Below, one piece after another: positions 16,411 to 29,612 of a DNA stretch of 31,910 bases; the stretch's first letter is position 1, and each line of letters opens with the position of its first letter. This DNA comes from an uncultured Desulfococcus sp. GTDB taxonomy: Bacteria > Desulfobacterota > Desulfobacteria > Desulfobacterales > Desulfosalsimonadaceae. A program made the position numbers and the translations under genes. Location of the stretch: positions 1-31,910 of the forward strand of contig CAZQLG010000001.1 of NCBI GenBank assembly GCA_964594105.1, written 5' to 3'. The notes below the pieces were generated by a model. The model saw only the letters and a list, made by a program, of their open reading frames with translations, did no database searches and had not been told where the DNA came from.

Positions 16411-17775
16411 ATGAATAGCATACAGGCAATTTCAGTTTTTGACGGGCGTTACCGTCGTTATACAAAAGCGTTAAATGAAATATTTTCCGAATACGGATTA
16501 ATTAAGTACCGGGTATTTGTTGAAATTCAATGGCTAAAGTTTTTATTCCAGGAGCTGTCCCTTGAGACTGTCTCTGAAGAAGACATCAAGCGGCTTGATT
16601 CTATTTTTTCTGATTTTAATGTGGCTTCAGCGCTTCAAATAAAAGAAATTGAAAGAGAGACCAATCACGATGTTAAGGCGGTTGAATACTATATTAAACA
16701 GCAAATGACGGCAATGGACATGGGGCATTTGAAGGAGTGGGTGCACTTTGCCTGTACGTCTGATGATATTAATAATACGTCTTATGCGTTAATGGTGAAA
16801 GAAGGTCGGTCAAAGCTTATTGATGACATCGTTTTGGTGATTGAGAAAATTGAATTTTATGCGAAAGAATATAAGGGGGTTCCCATGATGTCCCGGACGC
16901 ATGGGCAGCCGGCAACGCCGACAACGGTTGGGAAAGAATTTGTCAATTATGCCTGGCGATTAAGGGTTGAATTGACAAATTTGAAGCTATTGTATGTCCA
17001 TGGCAAAATGAATGGGGCCAGCGGTAATTTTAATGCGCATCAATTCGTTTTTCCGGATATTAACTGGATAACGGCCAGTGAAAAGTTTGTTTCCCAATAT
17101 TTAGGCTTGACACCCATTTTATATACCACCCAGATTAACCCGAATAATTATATTTCTGAAATATTGCATAATCTGATACGCATCGCTGCAACGATTATTG
17201 ACCTGGACCGGGATATGTGGGGGTATATTTCTTTGGGTTATTTTAACCAAAAAACGATTCCCGGCGAGGTGGGGTCTTCAACAATGCCCCATAAAGTCAA
17301 TCCCATTGATTTTGAGAACAGTGAAGGGAATATGGGAATGGCCATTTCCCTCATGGAACACCTTGCGGTGAAATTATTGAATTCCAGGTTCCAGCGGGAT
17401 TTAACAGACAGTACCGTACTCCGTAATTTAGGCGCTGTTTGGGGGTACCTATTGATTGGGCTGCAAAGCACGATAAAGGGTCTTGGCAAAATTGTACTCA
17501 ACGCCAAAGCCCTTGAAAATGATCTTGACGCCAATCCTGAATTACTGGCGGAAGCGGTTCAGACAGCCATGCGGGTGTTTAAAGAAGAAAATCCCTATGA
17601 AAAATTAAAAGGCCTGACACGGGGCCGGCGAATTTCCACAGAGGATATCAGCCAATTTGTTGATGGGCTTGAAAAGATTCCGGAAGCGTTGAAAGCACGG
17701 ATGAAAAAATTGACAGTGAGTCAATATACCGGGCTTGCTGAAAAACTGGTGGATCATTATTTCAGCAAAATATAG
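16411..17775 (+). CDS. purB: Adenylosuccinate lyase (long, about 456-aa type), 454 aa
   Basis: DGRY, HDVKAVEY, HFACTSDDINN, SRTHGQPATPTT, GSSTMPHKVNPIDFENSEGN, SRFQRDLTDSTVLRN. Confidence 0.96.
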   Translation: MNSIQAISVFDGRYRRYTKALNEIFSEYGLIKYRVFVEIQWLKFLFQELSLETVSEEDIKRLDSIFSDFNVASALQIKEIERETNHDVKAVEYYIKQQMTAMDMGHLKEWVHFACTSDDINNTSYALMVKEGRSKLIDDIVLVIEKIEFYAKEYKGVPMMSRTHGQPATPTTVGKEFVNYAWRLRVELTNLKLLYVHGKMNGASGNFNAHQFVFPDINWITASEKFVSQYLGLTPILYTTQINPNNYISEILHNLIRIAATIIDLDRDMWGYISLGYFNQKTIPGEVGSSTMPHKVNPIDFENSEGNMGMAISLMEHLAVKLLNSRFQRDLTDSTVLRNLGAVWGYLLIGLQSTIKGLGKIVLNAKALENDLDANPELLAEAVQTAMRVFKEENPYEKLKGLTRGRRISTEDISQFVDGLEKIPEALKARMKKLTVSQYTGLAEKLVDHYFSKI

Positions 17776-17917
17776 TTTTTGTTTGATTAAATAAAAGTAA
17801 TACGCTAAAAGATAATATTGTTTATCTGCCAAAAGAGTGTTTTTTGGGGTTCAATATAGTTTTTTTGATTCGTTATCGATGCAGGAACTAAATATATTTT
17901 TAAAGGGGTGATAATAA

Positions 17918-18310
17918 ATGGATTTTACAATCGAATTTGATAAGCAGCAGATTGAGTCAATTGAGAATATCCTGCAGGAAGAGCTTATTGATTTAGGGGT
18001 TCAAAGTGTTATTCTGATGGATCTGGCTGGCAACGTTATTGTTAATCTTGAAAACGGTGGTGCCAGTCATGACGTGTATTCCTTAGCTGCCCTTGCGGCC
18101 GGGAATTATGGGGCGGTCAGTGCAATGGCAAATATTATTGGTGAACAGGAATTTTCTCTTCTTTTTCATAAAGGCGAAGAAGAAAGTATTCATTTCAGTA
18201 AGGTTGTAGAAGATTTATTGTTGCTTACCATTTTTAACAAAAATGTATCTTTGGGCTTTTTGCGTTTAAAAGTCGCCGAAGCGATTAAAAGAATTCAAGT
18301 TTTGATATAG
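17918..18310 (+). CDS. mglB: MglB-like roadblock/LC7 GTPase-activating protein, 130 aa
   Basis: SLAALAAGNYGAVSAMANIIGEQEF...FHKG...SLGFLRLKV closely parallels Myxococcus MglB; immediately upstream of mglA. Confidence 0.9.
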   Translation: MDFTIEFDKQQIESIENILQEELIDLGVQSVILMDLAGNVIVNLENGGASHDVYSLAALAAGNYGAVSAMANIIGEQEFSLLFHKGEEESIHFSKVVEDLLLLTIFNKNVSLGFLRLKVAEAIKRIQVLI

Positions 18311-18390
18311 TCTTTTCTGATGTTGTTTATTGCCGGGAGGGTTTTTATCATCGGCAAAATTTTAACCTATGAGTGCTGGAGGTTGGTGGT

Positions 18391-18996
18391 TTGGCATTAA
18401 TAAATCCGAAAAAGAAGGAGGTCCAGGTAAAAATAGTCTACTATGGTCCCGGCCGAGGGGGTAAAACAACAAATCTTGAATATATTAATAAGAAGTTCAA
18501 AAAACGAATTCAGAATGAAATGGTGACGGTAAAAACGTATGGAGACCGAACTCTGTTTTTTGATTTTTTACCGTTTGATATAGGAGAAATTAAAGGGCAT
18601 AGCATTAAGGTCCAGCTATACACCGTACCCGGCCAGGTAAAATATAATGCCACGAGAAGACTGGTTCTAAGAGGCGTGGATGGCTTAGTATTTGTTGCTG
18701 ATTCAATGGATTTAAGACGTGAAATGAATATTCGTTCGTTACAAAATCTTAAAGAGAACCTGGAAACATTCAATAAAAGTATTTTCAATACCCCGCTGGT
18801 ATTGCAGTATAACAAACGCGATCTGGAAGAAGAAGGCATCCCTATTCTCTCAGTCGATACACTTCAAAGAGATTTGAACAGCCGGTTAAAAGCACCGAGT
18901 TTTGCGGCAAGTGCTGTTAAGGGGGATAATGTCGCAGCAACAATGAAAAAAATTATTGCATTAACCGTCGGATCATTGAGAAAAAAACTTGAATAG
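18391..18996 (+). CDS. mglA: MglA Ras-like small GTPase, about 201 aa
   Basis: KIVYYGPGRGGKTTNL (G1), DRTLFFDFLP (switch I Arg/Thr), YTVPGQ (switch II Gln), QYNKRDL (G4). TTG start at 18391 with GGAGG 7 nt upstream gives MALIN, matching the MglA N-terminus. Confidence 0.95.
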   Translation: MALINPKKKEVQVKIVYYGPGRGGKTTNLEYINKKFKKRIQNEMVTVKTYGDRTLFFDFLPFDIGEIKGHSIKVQLYTVPGQVKYNATRRLVLRGVDGLVFVADSMDLRREMNIRSLQNLKENLETFNKSIFNTPLVLQYNKRDLEEEGIPILSVDTLQRDLNSRLKAPSFAASAVKGDNVAATMKKIIALTVGSLRKKLE

Positions 18997-19008
18997 GAGG
19001 GCAACGCA

Positions 19009-19749
19009 TTGACTACGAAGGATGATGATGGAAGCCTCGGGGCCGAGGTTTCAAGTCGATTAGATGAATTGTTTGGAGATGATGATGATTCCGAAGTGAC
19101 ACCGGTGTCAACCGTCCCTTCTGATGCAGTCAGTGTTGCTGGCGAATCAAAAAGAAAGGCCGGGAAAGCAGTTAAGCCCATGGCTGATAGTGCTTCTGAT
19201 AACCTGGACAAGGACTCTCCGATTAGAAATTTAAAGGCGCTGGTCTTTTCTATTGATTGGGAAATCACAGATGAGACAATGGTGGATTATCTTGTCGAAG
19301 TAAAGCGGCTTATGAAGGAATACAAAAACGATAAGATCCTTTCTCTTTTTTTGAAACTGCATGCATCCATCGGCAAGTATATTAAAGCCAAAAAGGCGCG
19401 CGCACACCCGGATTCCATTAAGTTTGTCGCATCTGTTTATAAAAATTTTGAAAAGGCTCTGCTGACGCCGGGAATGAAACAAAGTCAGAAAAAAAAGCTC
19501 CTGACGGTAGAAGTTAAAAAATTTAAGGATTTTAAACAACGGGTTCTTCTCCGGGATAGTACTGCCGAACCGGTACATGTTGTTGAATCTGTTGTAGTCG
19601 CGGATGATCAAAGGACGAAACCGATCAGTGGGGAAGGGCTGTCGAAGGAAACCAAAGAAGCGCTTGACTATATGCTGGAACAAATCAAAAAGGAAATTAA
19701 GGCTGAATTCCACACATTACGGCAGATAATCAAAAATCTCGGTGCCTGA
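19009..19749 (+). CDS. Conserved-looking hypothetical helical protein, 246 aa
   Basis: TTG start with GGAGG RBS 12 bp after mglA; acidic N-terminus (RLDELFGDDDD), helical core (LVFSIDWEITDE...IGKYI...AHPDS), C-terminal coiled-coil. Confidence 0.8.
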   Translation: MTTKDDDGSLGAEVSSRLDELFGDDDDSEVTPVSTVPSDAVSVAGESKRKAGKAVKPMADSASDNLDKDSPIRNLKALVFSIDWEITDETMVDYLVEVKRLMKEYKNDKILSLFLKLHASIGKYIKAKKARAHPDSIKFVASVYKNFEKALLTPGMKQSQKKKLLTVEVKKFKDFKQRVLLRDSTAEPVHVVESVVVADDQRTKPISGEGLSKETKEALDYMLEQIKKEIKAEFHTLRQIIKNLGA

Positions 19750-19838
19750 GAAACGTCCGGCCTGGCTTTTTTGTTTGTCTGTAAATGTTTCGAGTAAAAA
19801 TGATAGGGTATAATAATGATTTTTTGGAGGCTGAATAA

Positions 19839-20309
19839 ATGAACGTTTTTGCCGGTGATATGGCCAAATTGGTTCTGAAAAGAACCGTTCGGGCGGATTT
19901 GGGAGAAGTCTCGCTGGATAGTGAGATGCTTCAGGTTCTGATGGAACTTGATGGGACAAAAAATCTCGGTCAGGTTGCCCAGTCGCTAAATATGAATTTG
20001 AAACAGTTAAGACTGGTTTTAAATCGTCTATACAAACTTCATCTTTGTGAAACCGCAAAAGAAGCGATTCCCAGACTGGACAAATCTTTTTTTCATTATT
20101 TATCCGCAGAGCTGGCCCGTGCTATGGGACCCATTGCAGATGTCGTGATTGAAGATGAAATCAGTGAAATGGGGGAGAGTCAATTGAAATTTCCCGCTCA
20201 CCGTGCTGCCGAACTGGTGGATTTACTGGCTCGCCAGATTCTCAGAGAAGAGAGAAAAGTCGCTTTTCAGCAAGCCATGGTTAGAAAGCTGCGGGAAGTA
20301 AAGGCATGA
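19839..20309 (+). CDS. Hypothetical protein with winged-helix-like N-terminal half and helical C-terminal domain, 156 aa
   Basis: GGAGG RBS; VLMELDGTKNLGQVAQSLNMNLKQLRLVLNRLYKLHL resembles a wHTH; C-terminal ELARAMGPIADVVIED motif. Confidence 0.75.
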   Translation: MNVFAGDMAKLVLKRTVRADLGEVSLDSEMLQVLMELDGTKNLGQVAQSLNMNLKQLRLVLNRLYKLHLCETAKEAIPRLDKSFFHYLSAELARAMGPIADVVIEDEISEMGESQLKFPAHRAAELVDLLARQILREERKVAFQQAMVRKLREVKA

Positions 20310-20380
20310 ATCAATCAAGTTAATTGATTTTAACGTGTTACATTATTCATTGTTGCCAATTTAATTAAGGAGGAGAAGAT

Positions 20381-21559
20381 ATGACGGTTATTTGTGAAGA
20401 GTGCGGGAAGGTTTATCATATAGATCCTGATAAGCTAGACCAGTATAAAGGTAAATCCGTCAGGGTTCGTTGTGGTGAATGCGGGCATGTGACCCAGATC
20501 TCAAAGTTGATTGAAGCGACGGAGGAACCAGCTGATGATTTCGCAGCCGCTGATATCCCTGATATGCCGTCATCGGTGCCTGGTGAAGAAGAAAGAGAGG
20601 AAGAACCTGTTGACCATTCGGAACGCATGAGCGCCGGAAGTACTGATGGCCGTTCCAGTGGATGGCTTGGATTAAGAGGAAAAATGATGATTCTTTTCCT
20701 TGTCCTTCCGATTCTTCTAATGGCAGTTTCCGGATATCTTTCTCAACAGCAGTTAAACAAACTGGCGAATGAAATTACCGAGGAGAGTACCGCCCTTGTT
20801 CTGGAAGAAGGTAAGGAAAAGCTCATGCAAAAAGCCAGGGATGTGGCATTGCAAGCCGAGATCTATCTGCGCGCCCACCCGGACCTTGTAAGAGAGGATT
20901 TTTTCTATGATCCTGACTTTAGTGGAATAGCCGTGCAAAGTGTCGGGCAGTCCGGTTACACCTGCATTATTCAGCAGCCGGAAGCGGATAAAGGTCAGAA
21001 CTGGACGATCTGGGCGCACCCCAATCCGAATATTATCGGAATTGATGATATTGATATGATCAGAAAGGCGCTGGGGCCCTATTTTGAGAATTTTTGGAAT
21101 GTGCTGACCGGTGCTCTGGGAATGAAAGAGTCTGAAGGTTTTTATCGCTGGAAAGATCCGGATGGAAAAATCAGGGAAAAATATATGGCACTTGCCCCGA
21201 TTCAGCTTGAAGGGAAGCCCTTTCTCTTGATGAGTACCGCGTATATTGATGAATTTACCAACAAGACGGAGGATCTTAAAAAACGGGCCCAAAAACTGTC
21301 TGTGGATACCCGGAATCTAAATTTTGGTATTCTGATCGGGGCGATTGTTTTGATTGGTTTAATTATTATCATCTATGGTTATAGATTAACCAGAAATATT
21401 CAGTATCTGACGGAAGCAGCTGATCGTATCAGTGTCGGTGATCTTGAGGCAGAAATTGATGTTCATTCAAAAGATGAAATCGGCAACCTTGCAGATGCGA
21501 TTTCAAGGATGCAGGACAGCCTCCGGTTTTCGATTGAGCGGTTAAGACGCAGACGATAA
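20381..21559 (+). CDS. Membrane sensor: Zn-ribbon + TM + Cache-like periplasmic domain + TM + HAMP, no output domain, 392 aa
   Basis: CEEC...CGEC; TM1 MMILFLVLPILLMAVSGYL; Cache-like SVGQSGYTCII, WAHPNP, YRWKDPDG; TM2 FGILIGAIVLIGLIIIIYGY; HAMP LTEAADRISVGDL...DEIGNLADAISRM; stop about 12 codons later. AAGGAGG RBS. Confidence 0.88.
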   Translation: MTVICEECGKVYHIDPDKLDQYKGKSVRVRCGECGHVTQISKLIEATEEPADDFAAADIPDMPSSVPGEEEREEEPVDHSERMSAGSTDGRSSGWLGLRGKMMILFLVLPILLMAVSGYLSQQQLNKLANEITEESTALVLEEGKEKLMQKARDVALQAEIYLRAHPDLVREDFFYDPDFSGIAVQSVGQSGYTCIIQQPEADKGQNWTIWAHPNPNIIGIDDIDMIRKALGPYFENFWNVLTGALGMKESEGFYRWKDPDGKIREKYMALAPIQLEGKPFLLMSTAYIDEFTNKTEDLKKRAQKLSVDTRNLNFGILIGAIVLIGLIIIIYGYRLTRNIQYLTEAADRISVGDLEAEIDVHSKDEIGNLADAISRMQDSLRFSIERLRRRR

Positions 21560-21580
21560 TTTTTAAAAAATGTTATTCAA

Positions 21581-21627
21581 AACAAAACAAGCAATGTGTT
21601 AAATAACAACACATTGCTTGTTTTGTT
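21581..21627. terminator. Perfect 20-bp inverted repeat (terminator, RNA-processing stem or operator)
   Basis: aacaaaacaagcaatgtgtt (21581-21600) - aaataac - aacacattgcttgttttgtt (21608-21627). The structure is certain; the function is not. Confidence 0.6.
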
Positions 21628-21693
21628 ATATGAGAATTAAATAATATTTTTCCGGTATAATTTTTCCCGGAGGAATTCGTACAGGAAAAAATA

Positions 21694-22734
21694 ATGATTA
21701 TAATACCGAGGGAGAAATCGGCTGTTTCTGATTTAAACAGTTATTATCTTAAAATTGATAAATTAATCGAACATTATCAGGGCGCCTTGGGTACCGGTGG
21801 GGTGTATTTTAAATCTCCGATATCTGAAGGTGTTGTTTTTTTTGATGAGGACAACCTGCTCAATGGTTATTATAAAGATAAAAAAGTAGAGCTCAAAGGC
21901 GGGGCCGCTTTAAGAAAAATTAACGAAACCGCTTCAAAAAATAATTATTTGGTAACAGTGTATTATATTTTGCCGGAGAGGGTTTATTACTGGGCAAACC
22001 TTTCCAATGCGGAACCATTATATCGTGATTTGAGCTCAGAGTTTACGGACCTTGAAGGCCTGATTAAAAAGATGGAAAATGAAAAAGTTACCGGCTACAT
22101 TGATGTGAAATTCAATCAGGATGCCGGTGGTGGGCTGTTGTTTATTTACAATGGTGAAGTCATTGGCGGTGCCTCCTCCCAAGGTGTTGATGCGCTGGAT
22201 CGATCTGTTGAGTATCGGGATGATTTAATAACAAGATCCCGGGAATTCGGTGGTAATTTTAATGTTAAGAAAATTCAATTGTCAACGATTACCTCTCTGT
22301 CAAAACCCTCAGCTCCTGATAAGGAGACCAAGCTGGTTCTAAAGCCGTCCAAACCCAAAAAAACAAAAGCACTCCCTCAAAAAGATTCGCAGCGTGTTTT
22401 GCGTATGCTACAGGATCTTTTGGTGCTATTGGAGAAAGTGGTTCGGTCAAACAAACGGATAAAGGTTGATTTCGAAACCCTGTTAAACAAACAGTTTGTT
22501 GATAAAGTGGATCAATATGATTTTCTTGATCCATTTGCCGCTGAATTTCGATATTCGAACGGCAAGGTAACATTCAGCGGAAGAGCGAGCCAGAAAGAGC
22601 TTGTCGCTTCGATTACAGAGTGTGTTAAAGATATGGCGTTAAGTCTTGGCATGACAGCGGTTTTTAGAAAATATCTGGCAACATGGAAAAAAAACTATAC
22701 GGATGAAATTATTGATTTTAATATAGAAATGTAG
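21694..22734 (+). CDS. Hypothetical protein with two PATAN/DUF4388-like beta modules, 346 aa
   Basis: TGGVYFKSPISEGVVFFDEDNLLNG and TGYIDVKFNQDAGGGLLFIYNGEV; the second aligns with the PATAN segment of the next gene at 10/24 identities. Confidence 0.75.
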   Translation: MIIIPREKSAVSDLNSYYLKIDKLIEHYQGALGTGGVYFKSPISEGVVFFDEDNLLNGYYKDKKVELKGGAALRKINETASKNNYLVTVYYILPERVYYWANLSNAEPLYRDLSSEFTDLEGLIKKMENEKVTGYIDVKFNQDAGGGLLFIYNGEVIGGASSQGVDALDRSVEYRDDLITRSREFGGNFNVKKIQLSTITSLSKPSAPDKETKLVLKPSKPKKTKALPQKDSQRVLRMLQDLLVLLEKVVRSNKRIKVDFETLLNKQFVDKVDQYDFLDPFAAEFRYSNGKVTFSGRASQKELVASITECVKDMALSLGMTAVFRKYLATWKKNYTDEIIDFNIEM

Positions 22735-22803
22735 CATATATATAATTATGTTCGTGTTCGGATGATTCCATATGTCATTTTCCGCAGGGTAAAGGAATAG
22801 AAG

Positions 22804-23937
22804 ATGAGACCCAATGTTTTAATTGTTGATGATGATCAGGCATTTTTACGCTTGATCCAGAAAGATCTTGAAGGCTTTTCAGAATCATTTAATGTCTTAA
22901 CAGCTGATGCTGGAAACGCCGCTTTGGAATTGCTGAAAAAGACATATGTATCATTTATTGTCTCTGATTTAAGAATGCCGGGAATGGACGGGTTTGAGTT
23001 CCTGACAATTATTTTGAAAAAATTTCCGGATATTCCTGTTTATATGATGACCTCTTATGATAAACCAAAGACGAAGGATGTGGTTATTAAAAGTGGTGCG
23101 GCCGGTTATTTGAAAAAACCGTTTACTGCCATTGAGTTGTTTGGTGAAATAACAAAAACGTTAAATAAAAAAGCGGAAGGCGGAAGCCTTCACAATGTAA
23201 CGTTGGAAACATTTCTTCAACTCATTGAAATGGAACAGCAGACAAGTACATTGCGGGTTGTTGATAAAAAAGAAGCGCAGGGGGGTGTTCTTTTTTTCAG
23301 GAACGGTGAACTGATGAATGCCCGGGTTGGTGATATGCAGGGAAAGGCTGCCGCCTATGAAATCTTATCCTGGTCCAATGTTTCATTATCCATTGAGCAG
23401 GACTGCGTATTTCAGGAAAAGATTATCCAGGGTGATCTTCAGGCCATTTTATTGGATGCCATGCGGGTAAAAGACGAGTTGGCTGAAAAAAATGAAATGG
23501 GAGATGACGCTGAAAATAGTGAAATCCTTTTGGATGCACCGTTATCAGAAACAGAAGAGGATTTGGCGGAAGCAAAATTTGAACCACCTGTCGACCGGAT
23601 TTCGACGAAGAAACCAGAAACCACAGTAAAGGTGCACCCGATAAAAGAAGCAGTTGAATTGTCAAAACTTTCTCCGATTGATACCATTCGTATGAAAATT
23701 AAAAATTCTATTGGCGACCGAGATGGCATTTTGGATATATTCCATGACCCGAATTGGGATGCATTGATAGATCAGGCTTCAAATATCGGGAATGCCTTTA
23801 ATTGTGGGCGATTAAATGTTTTATATGTCAACCGTGAGAAAGATGATCAGTTTATCATTGTCCCGGGAGAAGAAACGACGGCCATATCAATTTCGGCGGA
23901 TGCCCCCTGGGATCGAATTATTGATGTTCTGGGATAG
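22804..23937 (+). CDS. Response regulator REC + PATAN/DUF4388 + acidic linker + C-terminal alpha/beta domain, 377 aa
   Basis: LIVDDD, VSDLRMPGMDG (phospho-Asp), MMTS, YLKKPF; GSLHNVTLETFLQLIEMEQQTSTLRV...GVLFFRNGELMNA...AAYEILSW is the PATAN signature. Confidence 0.9.
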   Translation: MRPNVLIVDDDQAFLRLIQKDLEGFSESFNVLTADAGNAALELLKKTYVSFIVSDLRMPGMDGFEFLTIILKKFPDIPVYMMTSYDKPKTKDVVIKSGAAGYLKKPFTAIELFGEITKTLNKKAEGGSLHNVTLETFLQLIEMEQQTSTLRVVDKKEAQGGVLFFRNGELMNARVGDMQGKAAAYEILSWSNVSLSIEQDCVFQEKIIQGDLQAILLDAMRVKDELAEKNEMGDDAENSEILLDAPLSETEEDLAEAKFEPPVDRISTKKPETTVKVHPIKEAVELSKLSPIDTIRMKIKNSIGDRDGILDIFHDPNWDALIDQASNIGNAFNCGRLNVLYVNREKDDQFIIVPGEETTAISISADAPWDRIIDVLG

Positions 23938-24000
23938 AAAATAGATAACTAATTTATTACATGATATGACTAATATGAAACAAGCAGCACGGATAAAGCA

Positions 24001-24369
24001 ATGAAAGATATATTTAAAGATGTAATGGGAATCGCAGGCGTCCATGGTTTAATGGTTATTACGAATGAGGGTAGCGTGCTGCTGAGCAGGTTTGATCCGG
24101 ACTATCGGCGTGAGGAGGAAAAACTTTCTCAAATCAATTGGGAGCCTTTTACCATTGAGATGAATAGTATTAAAGATGCAGAAATCGTTTATGACAGCGC
24201 ACGGTTTTATATAAAAAAAAGAGATACCGAATTTTTGATCGTGATTATCGGCGATAACGCACCGATTTCTATGGTACGCCTTAATTGTGAAATTTTGCTT
24301 CCATTGCTGAAAAAAATTCAACCGGCCAGTAAAAGAATCGGTAACCTCCTGAGGAAAAAAATATTTTAA
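24001..24369 (+). CDS. Second, divergent roadblock/LC7-like protein, 122 aa
   Basis: DVMGIAGVHGLMVITNEGSVL N-terminus and LIVIIGDNAPISMVRLNCE C-terminus match the roadblock pattern. Confidence 0.65.
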   Translation: MKDIFKDVMGIAGVHGLMVITNEGSVLLSRFDPDYRREEEKLSQINWEPFTIEMNSIKDAEIVYDSARFYIKKRDTEFLIVIIGDNAPISMVRLNCEILLPLLKKIQPASKRIGNLLRKKIF

Positions 24370-24567
24370 GAATATTTTGTTTTATTAAAAATTGAATATT
24401 CACTGATCGGTTTCCGCACATTCATCTATTTATGTATAAACTCCATCCTGTATGACATGCATAACGGTTTCTTAATATTGTTTCTTCATATATTTACGTA
24501 ATTAAAAGATTTAGCGCTGCTTTGCAACGTGAGCTGAAAACAAAAAGACTGGCCAGGAGCCACGACC

Positions 24568-26955
24568 ATGGAAAGTGTTCAAACGACAACTGAAGATTAT
24601 CAAGCCAAAATCAAATCTGCAGAAGCCTATGAGAAACATGGACTTTATGATGAAGCTTTGGAATTATATAAAGATATCTTATCCGGGGATGCTGATCTGG
24701 AAGAAGAAGTTATTCAGAAAATTAAATTCAAAGTAGATGAACTCGGTAAGGAAATTGAGGACAATGACAATCCATCTCCGTATAACCTGTCAACCGAAGA
24801 TGTCTCTCACATAAAAACCGGGCTTTCAACCGGAGAAAGCGGTCCGGATATCTATAACAGTGCCACCGCTTTCAAAGAACTTGGCTTGTACCGGGAGGCC
24901 ATTTCAGAATATAAAAAATTATTTCAGACAGATTATTTAACGGATGATTTTTTGGCGGATTTTTTGGAATGTAGCCTGGCAGTGAACAGCCCGGCAGATG
25001 TTGTTAAGGAAGTTGATCAGATTATTACCGAAAATAATATTGAGAAGAAAGCCCGGGCCGCGATTCATTTTATGCTGGGTGGTGAACTGGATAAGCGACA
25101 CTATAAAGAGCAGGCGATTAAATGTTATGAAGCGGTCCAAAAAATTGATCCGATTTATCCTCAAATTAAAAGGAGAATTGAGTCTGTTCAACCGGATAAA
25201 CGATTTGACTCTCGATATGATTATCTGTTGCGCAACAAAATCGTGGATACGGACCAGCTTCAAAAAGGACTGGCCCTGTCCAAAAAAATGAAAAAAAGTG
25301 TTGAAGCTGTTTTGATGGAACAGTTTAAAACATCCAAAGAAGATATTGGAAAGTCTCTTTCCGCTTATTACGGTTGCCCGTTTAAAGTGTTTGATGCCAA
25401 AATGGAAGTGCCTTATGAGTTGATCAGCAATTTAAAAAAACCTTTTTTAATCCAGGATGTTTGGGTGCCGCTGCATTGGGAAATCGATCATATTGAGATT
25501 TTGATCGATGACCCAAAGGATCTTAGCAAGTTAGATCATGCCAAAGCGCTTTTTAATACGAACAAGTTTATATTTTCTGTTGGTATTAAAGAGGATATTG
25601 TCGAAATTATAAACCATTTTTTTGCACAGGGGAAGACGCGCAAAAAAGAAGTCGGCACCGGGGCATCCACGGATGAATTTGATCAAATGCCGGATATCGC
25701 ATTTGAAGAGGTCGATGAAGAAGAGGATGATGGCGATGAAACATTTAACGAAGCCTCCGGAAAAGTCGTTCAGCTGGTGGATCAGGTACTGATTACGGCA
25801 TATCGCAAAGATGCATCTGATATACACATAGAACCGTCTACCATCTCAAAAAGGACAAAAATTCGTTTCAGGATTGACGGGGTTTGCCAGGATTTTCTTG
25901 AAGTTCCGAATTCCTTTGCAACAGCGATCCTGTCCAGAATTAAAATCATGGCAAATCTTGATATCGCAGAAAAACGTTTACCTCAGGATGGGAAAATCAA
26001 ATTTAAACGAAAAGGGATACCGACCTTTGAATTACGGGTCGCAACGGTGCCTACCGCCGATAGTCAGGAAGATGTTGTTATGAGAATTCTGGCAACCAGC
26101 GGCGCGATGAAACTGGAAGACCTGACCCTGACTGAAAGAAATATGGAAGTTTTATTAAAGGCAATCGCCAAGCCTTACGGCCTGGTTCTTGTTGTTGGCC
26201 CCACCGGATCGGGTAAGACAACAACCCTGCATTCAGCACTGCACCATATTAATACACCGGCGCGTAAAATTTGGACGGCTGAAGATCCAGTTGAAATCTC
26301 TCAGCTCGGGTTACGCCAGGTTGAGATTAAGAATAAGATCGGTCTGGATTTTGCCAGGGTTATGCGGGCATTTTTGAGGGCCGATCCTGACATCATCATG
26401 GTGGGTGAGATGCGCGACTATGAGACAGCATCTATCGGCGTTGAAGCCTCGTTGACCGGTCATTTGGTTTTTTCTACACTCCACACCAACAGTGCCCCTG
26501 AAACGGTGACTCGTCTTTTGGATATGGGGCTGAATCCATTAAATTTTTCTGATGCATTCCTTGCTGTACTGGCACAACGTCTGCTCCGCCGATTGTGTAA
26601 GAATTGTCGGAAAGCGTATTCACCGAGCCAGGAAGCGTTTGATGATATTGTGCACGATTATGGAGAAGAAGATTTTAAACAGACCGGAATAAAATTTTCT
26701 TCAGATCTGACGCTGTATTCACCGGTTGGTTGTGATCAGTGTAATGGATCAGGATATAAAGGTCGATTGGGAATTCATGAGCTCATGGAAGGAACGGCAG
26801 ACATCAAACGAATGATCAAAAAACAGGCCAGTGCGGAAGAATTATTTGTGAAAGCAAATGAACAAGGTATGACAACCCTTATGCAGGACGGAATCCTGAA
26901 GGTTTTTGGGGGACATTCGGATATGGATGAAGTCCGAAGGGTTTGTATTAGTTAG
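24568..26955 (+). CDS. pilB: PilB/GspE-family (type IV pilus / T2SS) extension ATPase with N-terminal TPR domain, 795 aa
   Basis: ASDIHIEP, RFRIDG, LDIAEKRLPQDG, Walker A GPTGSGKTTT, TAEDPVE, Walker B DPDIIMVGEMRD, TGHLVFSTLH, Zn site CKNC...CDQC. PilB versus GspE versus orphan paralogue cannot be resolved from this window. Confidence 0.85.
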   Translation: MESVQTTTEDYQAKIKSAEAYEKHGLYDEALELYKDILSGDADLEEEVIQKIKFKVDELGKEIEDNDNPSPYNLSTEDVSHIKTGLSTGESGPDIYNSATAFKELGLYREAISEYKKLFQTDYLTDDFLADFLECSLAVNSPADVVKEVDQIITENNIEKKARAAIHFMLGGELDKRHYKEQAIKCYEAVQKIDPIYPQIKRRIESVQPDKRFDSRYDYLLRNKIVDTDQLQKGLALSKKMKKSVEAVLMEQFKTSKEDIGKSLSAYYGCPFKVFDAKMEVPYELISNLKKPFLIQDVWVPLHWEIDHIEILIDDPKDLSKLDHAKALFNTNKFIFSVGIKEDIVEIINHFFAQGKTRKKEVGTGASTDEFDQMPDIAFEEVDEEEDDGDETFNEASGKVVQLVDQVLITAYRKDASDIHIEPSTISKRTKIRFRIDGVCQDFLEVPNSFATAILSRIKIMANLDIAEKRLPQDGKIKFKRKGIPTFELRVATVPTADSQEDVVMRILATSGAMKLEDLTLTERNMEVLLKAIAKPYGLVLVVGPTGSGKTTTLHSALHHINTPARKIWTAEDPVEISQLGLRQVEIKNKIGLDFARVMRAFLRADPDIIMVGEMRDYETASIGVEASLTGHLVFSTLHTNSAPETVTRLLDMGLNPLNFSDAFLAVLAQRLLRRLCKNCRKAYSPSQEAFDDIVHDYGEEDFKQTGIKFSSDLTLYSPVGCDQCNGSGYKGRLGIHELMEGTADIKRMIKKQASAEELFVKANEQGMTTLMQDGILKVFGGHSDMDEVRRVCIS

Positions 26956-26998
26956 TGTCTCGTCAAGATTACTCCATTTCATTCTTGACAAGACACTA
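26953..26998. repeat. 46-bp inverted repeat (mini-MITE/scar or terminator) starting at the ATPase stop codon
   Basis: tagtgtctcgtcaaga (26953-26968) versus reverse complement of tcttgacaagacacta (26983-26998): 15/16; 14-nt loop; the first three bases are the TAG stop. Confidence 0.7.
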
Positions 26999-27150
26999 TG
27001 CAGAATCAATTATTTTTTGTTCGTATTCGTAAAAAATAAAATCACTTGCAAGATTTAATGACGGATTGAGCAATAAATATTTTTTGTTGAATTAAAAATA
27101 GAAAATGAACCAACGGATAGAATTAATTCAGGAGCTGTAAAGTATATCAA

Positions 27151-27585
27151 ATGGGTCTTTTCTTTAAACGCCTTCTTAAATTTTTTAATCGGTCTTCTGG
27201 TCAGAAATATGAAGCCCCGCCAGATTTGAAATCGTATAAAAGATCCTTTAATCGTTTCCCCATTGAATTTGAAGTTATTGCATCTGTTCTTGATGGTGAC
27301 GCACATCGTGACACTGAAAGAAGTGAACTCCATGATGTGTCCGGTGGGGGCGCCATGTTTATCTCATGCTGGCCCGAAAGGTATTATCCGGGACAGCTTT
27401 TGAAACTGGATATTTTTTTAACCGGGACGGAAGATGTTCGCGCCTGCATTAAAACCGAGGCCTCTGTTGTCCGTATCCATCAAATTGAGATTAATGGTCA
27501 GAAAAGAACAGGTATTGCAGTAAAATTTCATAAGCCTTTTGAATTTGAAAGAATGGATCGTTCTTTTTTCGGTAATCTACCATGA
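27151..27585 (+). CDS. Stand-alone PilZ-domain protein with intact c-di-GMP motifs, 144 aa
   Basis: RSFNR (RxxxR), DVSGGG (DxSxxG), ASVVRI, GIAVKF. Confidence 0.88.
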   Translation: MGLFFKRLLKFFNRSSGQKYEAPPDLKSYKRSFNRFPIEFEVIASVLDGDAHRDTERSELHDVSGGGAMFISCWPERYYPGQLLKLDIFLTGTEDVRACIKTEASVVRIHQIEINGQKRTGIAVKFHKPFEFERMDRSFFGNLP

Positions 27586-28658
27586 AACAAACGTATCGCC
27601 GTGACTACAATACGATAGGCGGTAAGATGCTGGCTGCCCTGGCGCTTATGGCCGTCATTCCTTACCTTTTACTTTTTTATTTGTATCTAATCGACAAGAT
27701 TTCGATTTCCGAGACAATTGTTTTGTATTTTCCCATCATTCTGATTTCAACTGTTACCGGCTATTCCCTGATTCGAAGATCTGCGGACAACATATTCTAT
27801 TTGAGCAGGGAAACACGCCTGGCTGAAAACGGCGAGAAAAGCGAGCCGATTCAGATTGAGGCGGACCGGGAATTAAACGAGATTGCGGCGCATTTTAATT
27901 CTCTGATAGGCAAAATGGATAAGATGAAACGCAAAAATCAGGAGCAGGCTACCCAGTTGATGGTTTATTCCCGGGATTTGGCTTTATCTTATCAGAAAAC
28001 AAAACAGGAAGAAGAACTCAGAAATCGGTTGAGCCGGTATGTGGGGAATAATCTGGTTGAAAAGCTGATTGATTTAAAAGGCGGCGGGCTGGTTGATACC
28101 GAAAGACGCCGGGTGACGGTTCTTTTTGCGGACATCCGTTCTTTTACCACCATTGCTGAACGCATGACGGCTGAAGATGTGGTTTTGATGCTTAATCAGT
28201 ACTTTAGCATAATGGTCGATATTATTTTTAAAAACAATGGATTGTTGGATAAATTTGTCGGGGATCAACTCATTGCTGTTTTTGGACTTGTGGATGCGTC
28301 GGGGAATGCGGCTGAAAATGCCATTCGAAGCGCCATTGAGATGCAGGAGGCCATCGAAGAAATGATGAAAAAAAGACTCCTGGCCAATCAGGAGCTTTTT
28401 GAAACCGGTATCGGCATCAATACCGGCAATGCGATTATCGGAAACATCGGGTCCTTAAACAGGATGGATTACACGGTTATCGGTGATAGTGTGAATGTCG
28501 CCGCACGGCTGGAGGAGATGGCCATTGGCGGCGAAATTATTATCGGAGAACAGACATTTCTGGAAAATCCGGGTGAATTTAATATTGAAAGCAGAGGTGA
28601 GGTTTATGTAAAGAACAAAATGGAGCCGGTCATCTGTTATAATGTAATCCGAGATTAA
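27582..28658 (+). CDS. Class III adenylate cyclase with 2 TM helices and HAMP-like linker, 358 aa
   Basis: LFADIRSFT, DKFVGDQ, GIGINTG, RMDYTVIGDSVNVAARLE: metal-binding Asp pair, ATP-specifying Lys/Asp and transition-state Asn/Arg all present. ATGA overlap with the PilZ gene. Confidence 0.92.
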   Translation: MKQTYRRDYNTIGGKMLAALALMAVIPYLLLFYLYLIDKISISETIVLYFPIILISTVTGYSLIRRSADNIFYLSRETRLAENGEKSEPIQIEADRELNEIAAHFNSLIGKMDKMKRKNQEQATQLMVYSRDLALSYQKTKQEEELRNRLSRYVGNNLVEKLIDLKGGGLVDTERRRVTVLFADIRSFTTIAERMTAEDVVLMLNQYFSIMVDIIFKNNGLLDKFVGDQLIAVFGLVDASGNAAENAIRSAIEMQEAIEEMMKKRLLANQELFETGIGINTGNAIIGNIGSLNRMDYTVIGDSVNVAARLEEMAIGGEIIIGEQTFLENPGEFNIESRGEVYVKNKMEPVICYNVIRD

Positions 28659-28838
28659 AGCAACGCCGGCGGATATTGCGGCCCGGTGGATTCGTAGAAT
28701 TAGACGCGGATCCGTTTGCCAAAGCGGTTCTGGTTAAACGTTGGAATCTACACCGGTGAGCCGGTGCCCCCGGAAGCTGTTTCAGCTGATGATCTAAGAA
28801 GACGCGTTTTTGCATTGTGAAAGGATTATAAATAAATA

Positions 28839-29612
28839 ATGAACCCCGTTTCATCCCGGTCGATACGGACCGGAATAGTCCGGCTTTTTCTGGCCGGGTT
28901 TCTGTTAATCCCTCTCAATATTCATGCCTCAGGTGAAGATAAAACGGATAAACCGGCGTCGCAAACCAATGAGCATGTAATCCTTTTGCATGGCATGGGT
29001 CGAACAAAATTTTCCCTGCGCAAGCTGGAAGTTTATCTTTCCGAACATGGATATCAGACAATCAATGATGGGTATCCATCCACCCGTTCATCGGTGAAAA
29101 AAATATCGGATGAATATTTTCACAAAATGGTGAACCAATGCCGGGAGAATGGCGCAGACAAGATACACATTGTTACTCATTCTTTGGGCGGGATTGTTGT
29201 CCGGCAGTACCTTCAGAATCATTTACTTCCGGAAGGCAGTCGGATTGTCATGATCAGCCCGCCAAATAAGGGGAGCGAACTGGCAGATTTATTTCGGACC
29301 TGGTTTATTTATGAATGGCTTAACGGGCCGGCCGGGCAAGTGCTTGGCACAGAACCGGGGAGCCTTCCGAATTCTTTAAAGCCGGTAAGCGCAGAGATTG
29401 GTGTTATTACCGGTGACAGTACATTGAATCCTTTATATTCATTTATAATTCCCGGTGACGATGATGGCAAGGTGTCTGTGGAAAGTGCGAAACTGGACAA
29501 ACTGGCGGATTTTTTGGTCGTGTCGAGCAGTCATTCGTTTATTATGCAGCATCCGGAAGTAATGAAGCAGGTGGTTATTTTTTTGGAAAATGGAAAATTT
29601 GATCACAGGTAG
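28839..29612 (+). CDS. Secreted alpha/beta hydrolase (lipase/esterase-like), 257 aa
   Basis: Signal peptide ending NIHA; ILLHGMG, THSLGG nucleophile elbow, DDGKV, SHSFIM. Confidence 0.88.
   Translation: MNPVSSRSIRTGIVRLFLAGFLLIPLNIHASGEDKTDKPASQTNEHVILLHGMGRTKFSLRKLEVYLSEHGYQTINDGYPSTRSSVKKISDEYFHKMVNQCRENGADKIHIVTHSLGGIVVRQYLQNHLLPEGSRIVMISPPNKGSELADLFRTWFIYEWLNGPAGQVLGTEPGSLPNSLKPVSAEIGVITGDSTLNPLYSFIIPGDDDGKVSVESAKLDKLADFLVVSSSHSFIMQHPEVMKQVVIFLENGKFDHR

What the first reader, a model, noticed from the sequence alone, without database searches (positions are those of the whole stretch)
24568..26955. PilB/GspE ATPase fused to an N-terminal TPR domain: possible Rosetta-stone for direct MglA-to-motor coupling
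Seen: about 210 aa of TPR-like repeats precede the motor (SAEAYEKHGLYDEALELYKDIL; IYNSATAFKELGLYREAISEYKKL; IHFMLGGELDKRHYKEQAIKCYEAVQKIDPIY). Established: in Myxococcus, the TPR protein SgmX binds MglA-GTP through its C-terminal TPRs and activates pilus extension. Inference from memory, not from an alignment: YNSATAFKELGLYREAISEY resembles the HYNLGIAYKEMGL-type TPR found at the C-termini of large deltaproteobacterial TPR proteins. If that holds, effector and motor are fused here. The ATPase also shows the variant RAFLRADPD (usual RxxLRQDPD), and no pilC/pilT/pilin is nearby, so it may be a specialised paralogue.
Basis: partly seen in the sequence, partly recalled or inferred. Interest (0 to 1): 0.72.

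Follow-up and report, generated by a model that had tools for sequence, protein, structure and literature searches.

The report
PilB-type ATPase with fused SgmX-like MglA-binding domain
A pilus-motor-type ATPase of sulfate-reducing Desulfobacterales carries at its front end a copy of the small repeat domain that, in Myxococcus, lets the protein SgmX bind the polarity switch MglA, and its gene nearly always sits just downstream of mglB-mglA, so the switch probably acts on this motor directly (binding not yet tested).

Summary
ORF 24568-26955 (+) encodes a 795-aa protein. It has an N-terminal helical/TPR region (aa 1-208), a MshEN-type N1 domain (215-360), an acidic linker, and a complete PilB/GspE ATPase (397-791).

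The fusion is a conserved family: 277 hits, all about 795 aa, in Desulfobacterales.

A profile of aa 66-212 was searched against 1.84 billion proteins. [quoted passage not shown] Generic TPR proteins reach at most 28 bits. That C-terminal region is where M. xanthus SgmX binds MglA-GTP. The Myxococcaceae SgmX branch by itself is not distinguishable from TPR background.

mglB-mglA lie 5.6-6.7 kb upstream in this window. They are present in 19 of 20 related loci with enough flank.

A co-fold of the TPR region with MglA+GTP gave weak support (0.44 against 0.03 for the best control).

On a 15-sequence tree the ATPase groups with a GAF-fused paralogue, apart from canonical PilB and GspE.

MglA binding is inferred, not shown. 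I rate this a new variant of a known kind and fairly interesting.

The parts
24568..26955 (+). Whole gene: 795-aa TPR-MshEN-PilB-type ATPase (P0001)
   Evidence: ORF and translation. RBS AGGAG 10 nt upstream of the ATG. Family of 277 proteins, about 795 aa where complete.
24568..24765 (+). aa 1-66: N-terminal TPR-like hairpin (aa 4-39) plus long helix (46-66)
   Evidence: AF2 model. Invariant A18, G25, L26, E29. Weak internal repeat of the first TPR of the main domain (16.8 bits).
24793..25191 (+). aa 76-208: SgmX-C-like domain, made of a pre-helix, three TPR hairpins and a cap helix; the proposed MglA-GTP-binding module
   Evidence: AF2 pLDDT about 90. The profile A4 matches the C-terminal domain of 12 SgmX-like proteins at 31.6-67.9 bits, with library-wide domain E from 8e-14 to 0.012 (nine at or below 2.5e-4), against at most 28.4 bits for generic TPR proteins. 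hhalign to Myxococcaceae SgmX C-termini gives 95.7% over 136 columns, but see the control.
25210..25647 (+). aa 215-360: MshEN/GSPII-type N1 domain with degenerate c-di-GMP motifs
   Evidence: Pfam MshEN. Foldseek top hits are MshE-N with c-di-GMP (5htl), PilF GSPII-B, XpsE-N and PilB-N/PilZ. The RLGxxL motifs read RYDYLL and KSVEAVL here, while they are intact in canonical PilBs.
25651..25752 (+). aa 362-395: acidic, poorly conserved linker
   Evidence: Alignment A1. Low pLDDT at 360-365.
25756..26940 (+). aa 397-791: T2SSE ATPase core (N2 + CTD). Walker A GPTGSGKTT (544-552), LRADPD/Walker B region (600-617), His box (631-641), tetracysteine C677/C680/C722/C725
   Evidence: Pfam T2SSE E 4e-118. 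Invariant columns. Best PDB sequence hit is M. xanthus PilB 3jc8, E 6.5e-105.
26365..26391 (+). RAFLRADPD (aa 600-608): a marker of the clade, with A in place of the usual Q
   Evidence: Shared by TPR-PilB and GAF-PilB only. The five PilB/GspE/orphan/PilT sequences in which the motif was found have LRQDPD; it was not found by my pattern in the two Desulfobacterales GspEs.
17918..18310 (+). MglB-like Roadblock/LC7 protein (context; presumed GAP)
   Evidence: Pfam Robl_LC7. Conserved upstream of TPR-PilB in 19 of 20 loci with enough flank.
18373..18996 (+). MglA-like small GTPase (context; proposed ligand of the TPR domain)
   Evidence: Pfam Ras/Arf. P-loop, TVPGQ and NKRD conserved. Cluster-specific orthologue, distinct from a second MglA elsewhere in the genome. 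Co-fold with the TPR region scores 0.44 against 0.03 for the best control.
19009..19749 (+). 246-aa protein of unknown family directly after mglA. It is kept even in the compact cluster variants.
   Evidence: tblastn synteny. No significant Pfam hit.
22804..23937 (+). REC + PATAN (DUF4388) response regulator (context; possible second input on the ATPase)
   Evidence: Pfam. Conserved neighbour. PATAN domains bind PilB1 and PilC in Synechocystis (bioRxiv 10.1101/2021.06.11.447907).
24001..24369 (+). 122-aa conserved protein directly upstream, possibly roadblock-like
   Evidence: Synteny. Only a weak Robl_LC7 hit, E 0.16.
27151..28658 (+). PilZ protein and class III nucleotidyl cyclase downstream. 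They are present only in the closer clade of loci.
   Evidence: Pfam. Present in loci with at least 55% identity in the TPR region and absent from the distant ones.

Best explanation
This is a PilB-family (type IVa-pilus-extension-type) hexameric secretion ATPase. It belongs to a separate paralogue clade. At its N-terminus it has acquired a copy of the three-TPR domain found at the C-terminus of SgmX/Bd2492-family proteins, the part of SgmX that binds MglA-GTP.

The gene closes a conserved Desulfobacterales cluster: mglB, mglA, 246-aa protein, 156-aa protein, Zn-ribbon/HAMP receptor, 346-aa protein, REC-PATAN, 122-aa protein, TPR-PilB.

Proposed mechanism (inferred):
- The cluster's own MglA, in its GTP form, binds the TPR domain. 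This recruits the ATPase, or relieves its inhibition, wherever MglA-GTP accumulates. The SgmX adaptor step of Myxococcus is thereby short-circuited.
- MglB, acting as GAP, switches it off.
- The REC-PATAN regulator may give a second, phosphorylation-dependent input on the ATPase.
- The N1 (MshEN) domain has lost the c-di-GMP motifs, so control has shifted from c-di-GMP to the G-protein.

Shown: the architecture, the homology of the domain, the synteny and the intact catalytic motifs. Inferred: MglA binding, its effect on the ATPase, and which membrane platform the ATPase drives.
For: 1. Architecture and catalytic motifs are intact and conserved in 277 proteins.

2. The profile of aa 66-212, built from the family only, was searched against 1.84e9 proteins. 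Among the 54 non-family proteins in the top 150, the 12 with the best single-domain scores (31.6-67.9 bits; domain E for the whole library from 8e-14 to 0.012, nine of them at or below 2.5e-4) all carry the match at their C-terminal end. All 12 also have an SgmX-type N-terminus (BLASTP E 1e-22 to 1e-80, aligned from residues 1-12). The other 42, generic TPR proteins, reach at most 28.4 bits.

3. One of these proteins, P0247 (57 bits, E 1.8e-10), lies six genes downstream of pilP-pilQ. It is a full-length homologue of the putative SgmX of Cystobacter fuscus, P0122 (N-terminus 44% identity, E 1e-116; C-terminus E 2e-26). P0122 itself lies about 20 kb from pilB-pilT-pilC.

4. Literature: SgmX TPR12-14 bind MglA-GTP but not MglA-GDP (PMC7668184). 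SgmX is a homologue of Bd2492, which binds MglA 1:1 (PMC7519303; PMC3983030).

5. Synteny: mglB-mglA lie upstream in 19 of 20 loci with at least 7 kb of flank, down to 34-42% identity in the TPR region. Compact variants place mglB-mglA-246aa directly before the ATPase.

6. Co-fold of TPR(1-212) with MglA, GTP and Mg: ipSAE 0.44 (runs 0.46, 0.44, 0.42), best of 3 controls 0.03, verdict 'weak support'. The mark was reached by 58 of 80 solved complexes and 2 of 110 mismatched pairs. At 0.60 or under, however, it was reached by only 7 of those 80 and by both mismatches. The runs agree in at least 49% of contacts and the partner pLDDT is 81.

7. No separate SgmX-like protein with this domain was found in the own genome or three relatives.
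Against: - No binding experiment exists.
- The bona fide Myxococcaceae SgmX branch matches only weakly. The Cystobacter protein scores 11 bits. A profile search of that genome gave only E 0.2-7, to N-terminal TPRs.
- With the Myxococcaceae SgmX-C profile, other TPR proteins of the same genome score as high as this one (45.7 against 48.6 and 49.2).
- The link to MglA binding therefore rests on homology across a diverged family, and the SgmX-MglA interface is not known.
- The co-fold pass is in the weak band, which the tool says is 'more often wrong than right unless the guess was likely beforehand'.
- M. xanthus SgmX itself could not be fetched, so the orthology of P0122 and P0247 is inferred from length, architecture and synteny.
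- Other cluster proteins (REC-PATAN, roadblock-like, Zn-ribbon receptor) could be the true TPR ligands.
- No platform (PilC/PilM) or pilin gene is nearby, so the machine driven is unknown.
- One locus with 10 kb of flank (L044) lacks mglBA nearby.
Confidence: 0.55

Rival explanations
1. The TPR domain is a docking site for another protein of the cluster, or for a polar landmark, rather than for MglA. Candidates are the REC-PATAN regulator, the roadblock-like 122-aa protein, the 246-aa protein and PilZ. MglA/MglB would then control the ATPase only indirectly, as MglA does through intermediates in Myxococcus.
For: - The cluster holds several conserved proteins of unknown role next to the ATPase.
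- PATAN domains bind PilB1 in Synechocystis.
- PilZ binds the PilB N-terminus in Xanthomonas (PDB 7lko among the fold hits).
- In SgmX the different TPR blocks bind different partners: FrzS, MglA and SopA (PMC11580455).
- The co-fold with MglA is only a weak pass.
Against: The nearest relatives of this particular domain are the C-terminal domains of SgmX-like proteins, not their FrzS-binding or PilB-activating blocks. mglB-mglA and the 246-aa gene are the parts kept in the most compact clusters, whereas REC-PATAN and the 122-aa gene can be missing (L045, L039). PilZ is confined to one subclade.
Confidence: 0.27
2. The N-terminal region is a generic TPR scaffold with no specific tie to MglA, for example for oligomerisation, stability or chaperoning of the ATPase. 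The neighbourhood with mglBA would then reflect co-regulation of a motility or adhesion regulon only.
For: TPR-versus-TPR comparisons readily give high scores. The control shows that the Myxococcaceae SgmX-C profile does not single this protein out. Foldseek hits for the TPR part are generic: designed CTPR proteins, OGT, Hop.
Against: In the library-wide profile search, SgmX-like C-terminal domains separate cleanly from all other TPR proteins, at 31.6 bits or more against 28.4 bits or less. The matches cover the non-TPR pre-helix and the cap. Synteny with mglBA persists across loci that share only 34-42% identity in this region. The co-fold controls scored 0.00-0.03.
Confidence: 0.1
3. The protein is not a pilus extension motor. 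It powers another, unidentified secretion or fibre system, or it acts as a regulatory NTPase. 'MglA-to-pilus-motor coupling' would then be the wrong frame, even if MglA binds.
For: - No pilC, pilM, pilT or pilin gene in the window.
- The score is below the PilB equivalog cut-off (501 against 675 bits).
- The clade is separate from the canonical PilB that sits beside PilC, and from GspE.
- A complete relative genome has three further 585-614-aa PilB/GspE-type ATPases, one in a T2SS cluster and one beside a secretin and PilC.
Against: - The best sequence matches are T4aP PilBs of M. xanthus and Geobacter over the full N1-N2-CTD length.
- PilB is also the top NCBIfam model.
- All catalytic and Zn-binding motifs are kept.
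- The regulators around it (MglA/B, PATAN, PilZ) are those known to act on type IV pili.
Confidence: 0.2

Closest known systems
SgmX (MXAN_5766) of Myxococcus xanthus and its family, including Bd2492 of Bdellovibrio
   Same: It shares a homologous domain made of a pre-helix, three TPRs and a cap. In SgmX this domain (TPR12-14) binds MglA-GTP, and SgmX acts on the PilB extension ATPase. The genetic link to MglA/MglB is also shared.
   Different: SgmX-like proteins are 700-1060 aa and made of TPRs and linkers only. The domain sits at their C-terminus, and an N-terminal TPR array stimulates PilB by an unknown, apparently indirect route. Here only the C-terminal-type domain is present, it is N-terminal, and it is covalently fused to the ATPase. 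The Myxococcaceae branch is very diverged from it.
PilB, the type IVa pilus extension ATPase (M. xanthus 3jc8; Geobacter 5tsg)
   Same: Full N1-N2-CTD architecture, Walker A/B, Asp and His boxes, tetracysteine Zn site. These are the best sequence hits (E 1e-100 to 1e-105).
   Different: It has about 210 extra N-terminal residues. LRADPD replaces LRQDPD. The c-di-GMP motifs in N1 are degenerate. The score is below the PilB equivalog cut-off. It forms a separate clade and is not encoded with pilT/pilC.
MshE (Vibrio) and PilF (Thermus): PilB-type ATPases regulated through N-terminal sensor domains
   Same: The principle is the same: regulatory input comes through extra or specialised N-terminal domains of the ATPase. 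The MshEN/GSPII fold is also present here.
   Different: Those ATPases sense c-di-GMP through intact MshEN motifs. Here the motifs are lost, and the added domain is a protein-binding TPR module related to a G-protein effector.
GAF-MshEN-ATPase paralogue of the same genome (G000 contig C14)
   Same: It is the sister clade (support 99/100). It shares LRADPD, the degenerate N1 motifs and an orphan genomic position.
   Different: Its N-terminal sensor is a GAF domain instead of the TPR module, and it has no mglBA neighbourhood.
PatA-type PATAN response regulators acting on PilB1/PilC (Synechocystis), and FimX-PilZ-PilB (Xanthomonas)
   Same: These are accessory regulators that bind the extension ATPase to set where and when pili form. 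Homologous domains (REC-PATAN, PilZ) are encoded beside this gene.
   Different: They are separate proteins binding in trans. Whether they bind this ATPase is untested.

Membership tests
T2SSE / GspE-PilB secretion ATPase superfamily (PF00437) | Pfam model above gathering score; Walker A, Asp box, Walker B, His box | tested here: met
   394.6 bits against a cut-off of 24.9. GPTGSGKTT, DPDIIMVGEMRD and TGHLVFSTLHTN are invariant in the family.
T2SSE / GspE-PilB secretion ATPase superfamily (PF00437) | Tetracysteine Zn-binding motif in the C-terminal domain (PilB/GspE subgroup) | tested here: met
   C677, C680, C722 and C725 are invariant.
Type IV-A pilus assembly ATPase PilB (TIGR02538 equivalog) | Score above the curated equivalog cut-off | tested here: not met
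   501.1 bits against a cut-off of 675.65. It is still the best-scoring model and aligns over 5-562 of 564 positions.
Type IV-A pilus assembly ATPase PilB (TIGR02538 equivalog) | Encoded with pilT/pilC, and groups with canonical PilB | tested here: not met
   No pil genes in the window. On the tree it is separate from the PilBs that sit beside PilT/PilC.
MshEN c-di-GMP-binding domain (PF05157) | Domain fold or model present | tested here: met
   29.2 bits against a cut-off of 23.1. Foldseek top hits are MshE-N and PilF GSPII-B.
MshEN c-di-GMP-binding domain (PF05157) | Tandem RLGxx(L/V/I)(L/V/I)xxG...Q motifs that hold c-di-GMP (motif recalled from the MshE literature) | tested here: not met
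   The motifs read RYDYLLRNK... and KSVEAVLMEQ... here. Canonical PilBs of Cystobacter and G042 keep RLGE(L/I)L and (R/K)(I/L)G.
SgmX/Bd2492 family of MglA effectors | C-terminal-type three-TPR domain (MglA-GTP-binding region of SgmX) | tested here: met
   The family profile A4 hits this domain in 12 SgmX-like proteins at 31.6-67.9 bits (library-wide domain E from 8e-14 to 0.012). Generic TPR proteins reach at most 28.4 bits. The Myxococcaceae branch alone is inconclusive.
SgmX/Bd2492 family of MglA effectors | N-terminal TPR array (TPR1-8 of SgmX) that stimulates pilus formation | tested here: not met
   It is absent. The protein continues directly into the MshEN and ATPase domains. It therefore shares a domain with the family but is not a member.
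SgmX/Bd2492 family of MglA effectors | GTP-dependent binding of MglA | not testable with these tools
   Only a co-fold prediction is available: 0.44 against a best control of 0.03, 'weak support'.
Tetratricopeptide repeat (TPR) | Helix-turn-helix repeats of about 34 aa with the TPR consensus | tested here: met
   TPR_2 scores 30.6 bits against a cut-off of 27 on aa 1-215. There are three hairpins at 92-193 with pLDDT about 90. Foldseek hits include CTPR and OGT TPRs.

The most novel reading that the evidence does not exclude
In these Desulfobacterales the Ras-like GTPase MglA gates a PilB-type motor directly, by binding a fused SgmX-type TPR module. The 9-11-gene cluster would then be a self-contained pathway from a membrane receptor through a G-protein switch to a motor ATPase, outside the myxobacteria. 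It would be a minimal natural version of the MglA-SgmX-PilB pathway, and would show that bringing the ATPase to MglA-GTP is sufficient for control.
Probability: 0.45. Interest if true: 0.78.

Novelty: new variant of a known kind. Interest (0 to 1): 0.7.

Why it matters
In Myxococcus it is still unknown how MglA and SgmX bring PilB to the pilus machine. Direct SgmX-PilB contacts have not been detected (PMC11580455).

A widespread natural fusion of the MglA-binding module to a PilB-type ATPase is a 'Rosetta stone'. It argues that proximity of the ATPase to MglA-GTP is the essential step. It also offers a two-component system (MglA plus one ATPase) that can be tested in vitro.

The finding extends MglA-controlled motors to uncultured sulfate reducers and gutless-worm symbionts. 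It also defines a clade of PilB-like ATPases (TPR- and GAF-fused) that swapped c-di-GMP sensing for other inputs. Public annotation currently calls these proteins only 'type II/IV secretion system protein' or 'GspE/PulE'.

Tried and rejected
1. Fetching M. xanthus SgmX directly. No named access was available. A degenerate DNA pattern for the MglA P-loop region returned more than 120 loci without M. xanthus among those listed. I used Cystobacter fuscus instead. Its 1037-aa TPR protein P0122, about 20 kb from pilB-pilT-pilC, is taken as the SgmX orthologue by inference.

2. HMMER profile of aa 1-212 against the Cystobacter genome. It gave only E 0.2-7, and those matches were to N-terminal TPRs of P0122. 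This is not significant.

3. hhalign of the family profile against 29 Myxococcaceae SgmX C-termini. It gave 95.7% probability and E 1e-8 over 136 columns. I do not count this as evidence on its own. In the control, other TPR ORFs of the same genome scored as high or higher against that profile.

4. Pairwise BLASTP against P0122. There were several weak segments (E 0.006-0.08), including the recalled HY(D/N)LGIAY(K/R)EMGL region. These are suggestive only.

5. Foldseek against PDB and AFDB clusters. The TPR part hits only generic TPR proteins, and the MshEN part dominates the results. No SgmX structure was available for comparison.

6. Promoter and terminator scan of 17700-28900. It was no better than shuffled sequence for promoters, and no intergenic terminator separates the cluster genes. 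It is uninformative about operon structure.

7. The idea that this is the organism's only PilB. I rejected it as unprovable in this 85%-complete MAG, and it is contradicted in a complete relative that has a canonical PilB beside a secretin and PilC.

8. A separate SgmX-like gene in the own genome or three relatives. None was found with the A4 profile. This is 'not found with this query', not proof of absence.
Full report
**Observation**

The ORF at 24568-26955 (+) is intact and has an AGGAG 10 nt before the ATG. It encodes 795 aa. The three quoted TPR-like strings and RAFLRADPD are all present.

Domain hits:
- Pfam gives T2SSE at 397-791 (E 4e-118) and MshEN at 268-356.
- TPR_2 is above its cut-off when aa 1-215 are scanned alone.
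- NCBIfam ranks the PilB equivalog first (501 bits over the whole model), but below its 675-bit cut-off. GspE is next at 473 bits.

An AF2 model of aa 1-365 built on a 25-sequence alignment has pLDDT 80.7. It shows:
- a TPR-like hairpin (4-39) and a long helix (46-66);
- a disordered stretch, then a pre-helix (76-86);
- three TPR hairpins (92-193) and a cap helix (200-207);
- then an MshEN-type domain.

Foldseek confirms both parts. The best hits are the MshE N-domain with c-di-GMP, PilF GSPII-B, XpsE-N and the PilB-N/PilZ complex, followed by designed CTPR proteins and OGT TPRs.

No pilC, pilT or pilin gene was found in the window. None appears among the larger ORFs scanned, and no prepilin motif occurs in any frame.

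**A conserved family**

The first 260 residues find 277 proteins at E<=1e-3. The 120 listed are about 795 aa where complete. They come from Desulfobacteraceae, Desulfosalsimonadaceae, Desulfococcaceae, Desulfosarcinaceae and the Olavius symbionts Delta 1 and Delta 3. They are annotated only as generic type II/IV secretion ATPases.

In the family alignment the following are invariant:
- the catalytic motifs (Walker A, Walker B region, His box);
- four Zn-binding cysteines;
- the LRADPD variant;
- a few TPR positions: A18, G25, L26, E29, S98, G106, L107, E114, G171, P195.

**Gene neighbourhood**

The window reads, all on the + strand:
- mglB-like roadblock (17918-18310)
- mglA-like GTPase (18373-18996)
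- 246-aa protein
- 156-aa protein
- Zn-ribbon/HAMP receptor
- 346-aa protein
- REC-PATAN
- 122-aa protein
- TPR-PilB
- PilZ
- nucleotidyl cyclase

I ran tblastn of these proteins against 38 related loci. Of the 20 loci with at least 7 kb upstream, 19 carry mglB-mglA upstream: 16 keep the order from mglB to TPR-PilB (one of them without a detectable 122-aa gene), one has an insertion within it, and two are compact variants. This includes loci with only 34-42% identity in the TPR region.

Compact variants exist: mglB-mglA-246aa-TPR-PilB (L045), and one with REC-PATAN in between (L027). A short-flank locus (L039) shows a similar compact order with a Zn-ribbon/HAMP fragment in between. PilZ and the cyclase occur only in the closer clade.

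One locus with full flank (L044) lacks the cluster. Three of the four genomes without adjacency still have 1-3 MglA homologues. The fourth is a 2.5-Mb MAG.

The own genome and three relatives each have 2-4 MglA paralogues. The copy beside TPR-PilB forms a distinct, very conserved orthologue group.

**Is the TPR domain SgmX-like?**

The literature confirms the premise:
- SgmX (1060 aa) binds MglA-GTP, but not MglA-GDP, through its last three TPRs (PMC7668184).
- Its N-terminal TPRs act on PilB by an unknown route (PMC11580455).
- It is a homologue of Bd2492, which binds MglA 1:1 (PMC7519303; PMC3983030).

I could not fetch the M. xanthus sequence, so I used Cystobacter fuscus. A 1037-aa protein made of TPRs and linkers (P0122) lies about 20 kb from pilB-pilT-pilC. 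Its C-terminal domain is conserved in 40 of 41 genomes of that family, in open frames of about 1000-1100 aa in the full-length cases.

Direct comparisons with this branch were inconclusive:
- HMMER gave E 0.2-7.
- BLASTP segments gave E 0.006-0.08.
- hhalign gave 95.7% probability over 136 columns, but other TPR proteins of the same genome score equally against that profile.

The decisive test was an exhaustive profile search. I built the profile from aa 66-212 of this family only and searched 1.84 billion proteins. I then rescored the top 150 at domain level with the library size:
- 96 belong to the family itself, many of them fragments.
- Of the other 54, the 12 with the best single-domain scores have 31.6-67.9 bits. 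Their domain E-values run from 8e-14, 1.8e-10 and 1.4e-7 up to 0.012.
- All 12 carry the match at their C-terminal end, covering about 108-135 of the 147 profile positions. In seven the match reaches back to profile positions 9-17, within or before the pre-helix, and in all but one it runs on to the cap.
- All 12 have an N-terminus homologous to the SgmX N-terminus from residues 1-12 (BLASTP E 1e-22 to 1e-80).
- The remaining 42, generic multi-TPR proteins, reach at most 28.4 bits.

One of the twelve, P0247, is a full-length homologue of P0122 (E 1e-116 and 2e-26). It lies six genes downstream of pilP-pilQ, after accB-accC.

The TPR module is therefore specifically related to the C-terminal domain of the SgmX family. 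The Myxococcaceae members are a diverged branch of that family.

**Does MglA bind?**

I co-folded aa 1-212 with the cluster MglA, GTP and Mg, both proteins as alignments:
- ipSAE was 0.44 (runs 0.46, 0.44, 0.42) against 0.03 for the best of three controls. The verdict was 'weak support'.
- The mark was reached by 58 of 80 solved complexes and 2 of 110 mismatches in the tool's calibration.
- Scores of 0.60 or under were seen in only 7 of those 80 complexes and in both mismatches.
- The runs agree in at least 49% of contacts, and the partner pLDDT is 81.

Given the independent homology and synteny, I treat this as a modest increment, not proof.

**What kind of ATPase?**

The best PDB sequence matches are the M. 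xanthus and Geobacter T4aP PilBs, over N1-N2-CTD.

The own MAG (85% complete) also has a GspE inside a T2SS cluster and an orphan GAF-MshEN-ATPase. A complete relative genome has TPR-PilB plus:
- a GspE in a T2SS cluster;
- a PilB beside a secretin and PilC;
- a third 604-aa ATPase;
- two PilT-like genes.

On a maximum-likelihood tree of 15 sequences, TPR-PilB is monophyletic (support 100/98). It is sister to the GAF-fused paralogue (99/100) and separate from canonical PilB and GspE. This is a small sample, and the root is for drawing only.

TPR-PilB and the GAF-fused paralogue share two features that canonical PilBs lack. Both have LRADPD, and both have degenerate versions of the RLG-type MshEN motifs, which canonical PilBs keep intact. 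'Specialised paralogue' is therefore supported. Which membrane platform the ATPase serves remains open.

**Reading**

The best-supported explanation is a PilB-type ATPase whose N-terminus carries the MglA-binding module of an SgmX-like effector, under the control of a dedicated MglA/MglB pair. The neighbouring REC-PATAN protein is a plausible second input, because PATAN domains bind PilB1 and PilC in Synechocystis.

I put about 0.55 on direct, GTP-dependent MglA binding to the TPR domain. The main rival is another cluster protein as the ligand (about 0.27). A non-specific TPR role is less likely (about 0.1). Whether the motor is a pilus motor at all is a separate question; I give about 0.2 that it is not.

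**Novelty**

Papers found in the library describe SgmX, Bd2492, the occasional association of MglA with PATAN (PMC4316618) and PATAN-PilB1. None describes a PilB-type ATPase fused to an SgmX-type domain, or this cluster. The library does not cover all journals.

Other notes from this scan on the same window point to the same cluster and to the degenerate MshEN domain. I saw them only after forming my reading.

I rate this a new variant of a known kind, with fairly high interest. It turns an open question, how MglA reaches PilB, into a two-protein experiment.

Noticed in passing
L202:10208-12544:- (G000 contig C14): A 778-aa GAF-MshEN-T2SSE ATPase stands alone among metabolic genes. It is the sister clade of TPR-PilB and shares LRADPD and the degenerate MshEN motifs. 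This suggests a wider clade of PilB-like ATPases with swapped N-terminal sensor domains.
   Followed up: partly
L224:3004-5285:- (G000 contig C225): The genome's second MglA paralogue is followed by a PATAN(DUF4388)+cNMP-binding protein and a PilZ protein. The MglA-PATAN-PilZ theme therefore recurs at a second locus.
   Followed up: partly
L223:25-942:- (G000 contig C297): A 305-aa ORF has an N-terminal region that weakly matches the whole TPR-module profile (15.7 bits, same position as in TPR-PilB). It is followed by a beta-rich C-terminal part with no Pfam hit. It may be a paralogous module fused to another output.
   Followed up: partly
window 24001-24369 (+) and 21694-22734 (+): The 122-aa and 346-aa proteins are conserved in the cluster and have no significant Pfam hit. 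The 122-aa protein has only a weak Roadblock/LC7 match (E 0.16).
   Followed up: no
window 19009-19749 (+): The 246-aa protein directly after mglA has an acidic N-terminus and a helical C-terminus. It is the one unknown kept even in the most compact clusters (mglB-mglA-246aa-ATPase), which makes it a candidate core partner of MglA.
   Followed up: no
L213 and L214 (genome G044): One relative genome carries two TPR-PilB copies on different contigs (open frames of 789 and 810 aa).
   Followed up: no
P0208 (924 aa, from the representative library): An SgmX-like protein carries two tandem copies of the C-terminal-type domain (aa 550-669 and 792-914). The module duplicates as a unit.
   Followed up: no
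AFDB cluster hits A0A432HUC2 (491 aa) and A0A3N5RB45 (258 aa): One entry aligns over both the TPR and MshEN parts (28% identity, residues 10-362) but is only 491 aa. A 258-aa stand-alone TPR protein aligns to aa 12-207. These may be split or truncated forms of the N-terminal region.
   Followed up: no
window 27151-28658 (+): The PilZ stop codon overlaps the start codon of the cyclase gene (27582-27585). This pair accompanies TPR-PilB only in the closer clade of loci.
   Followed up: no
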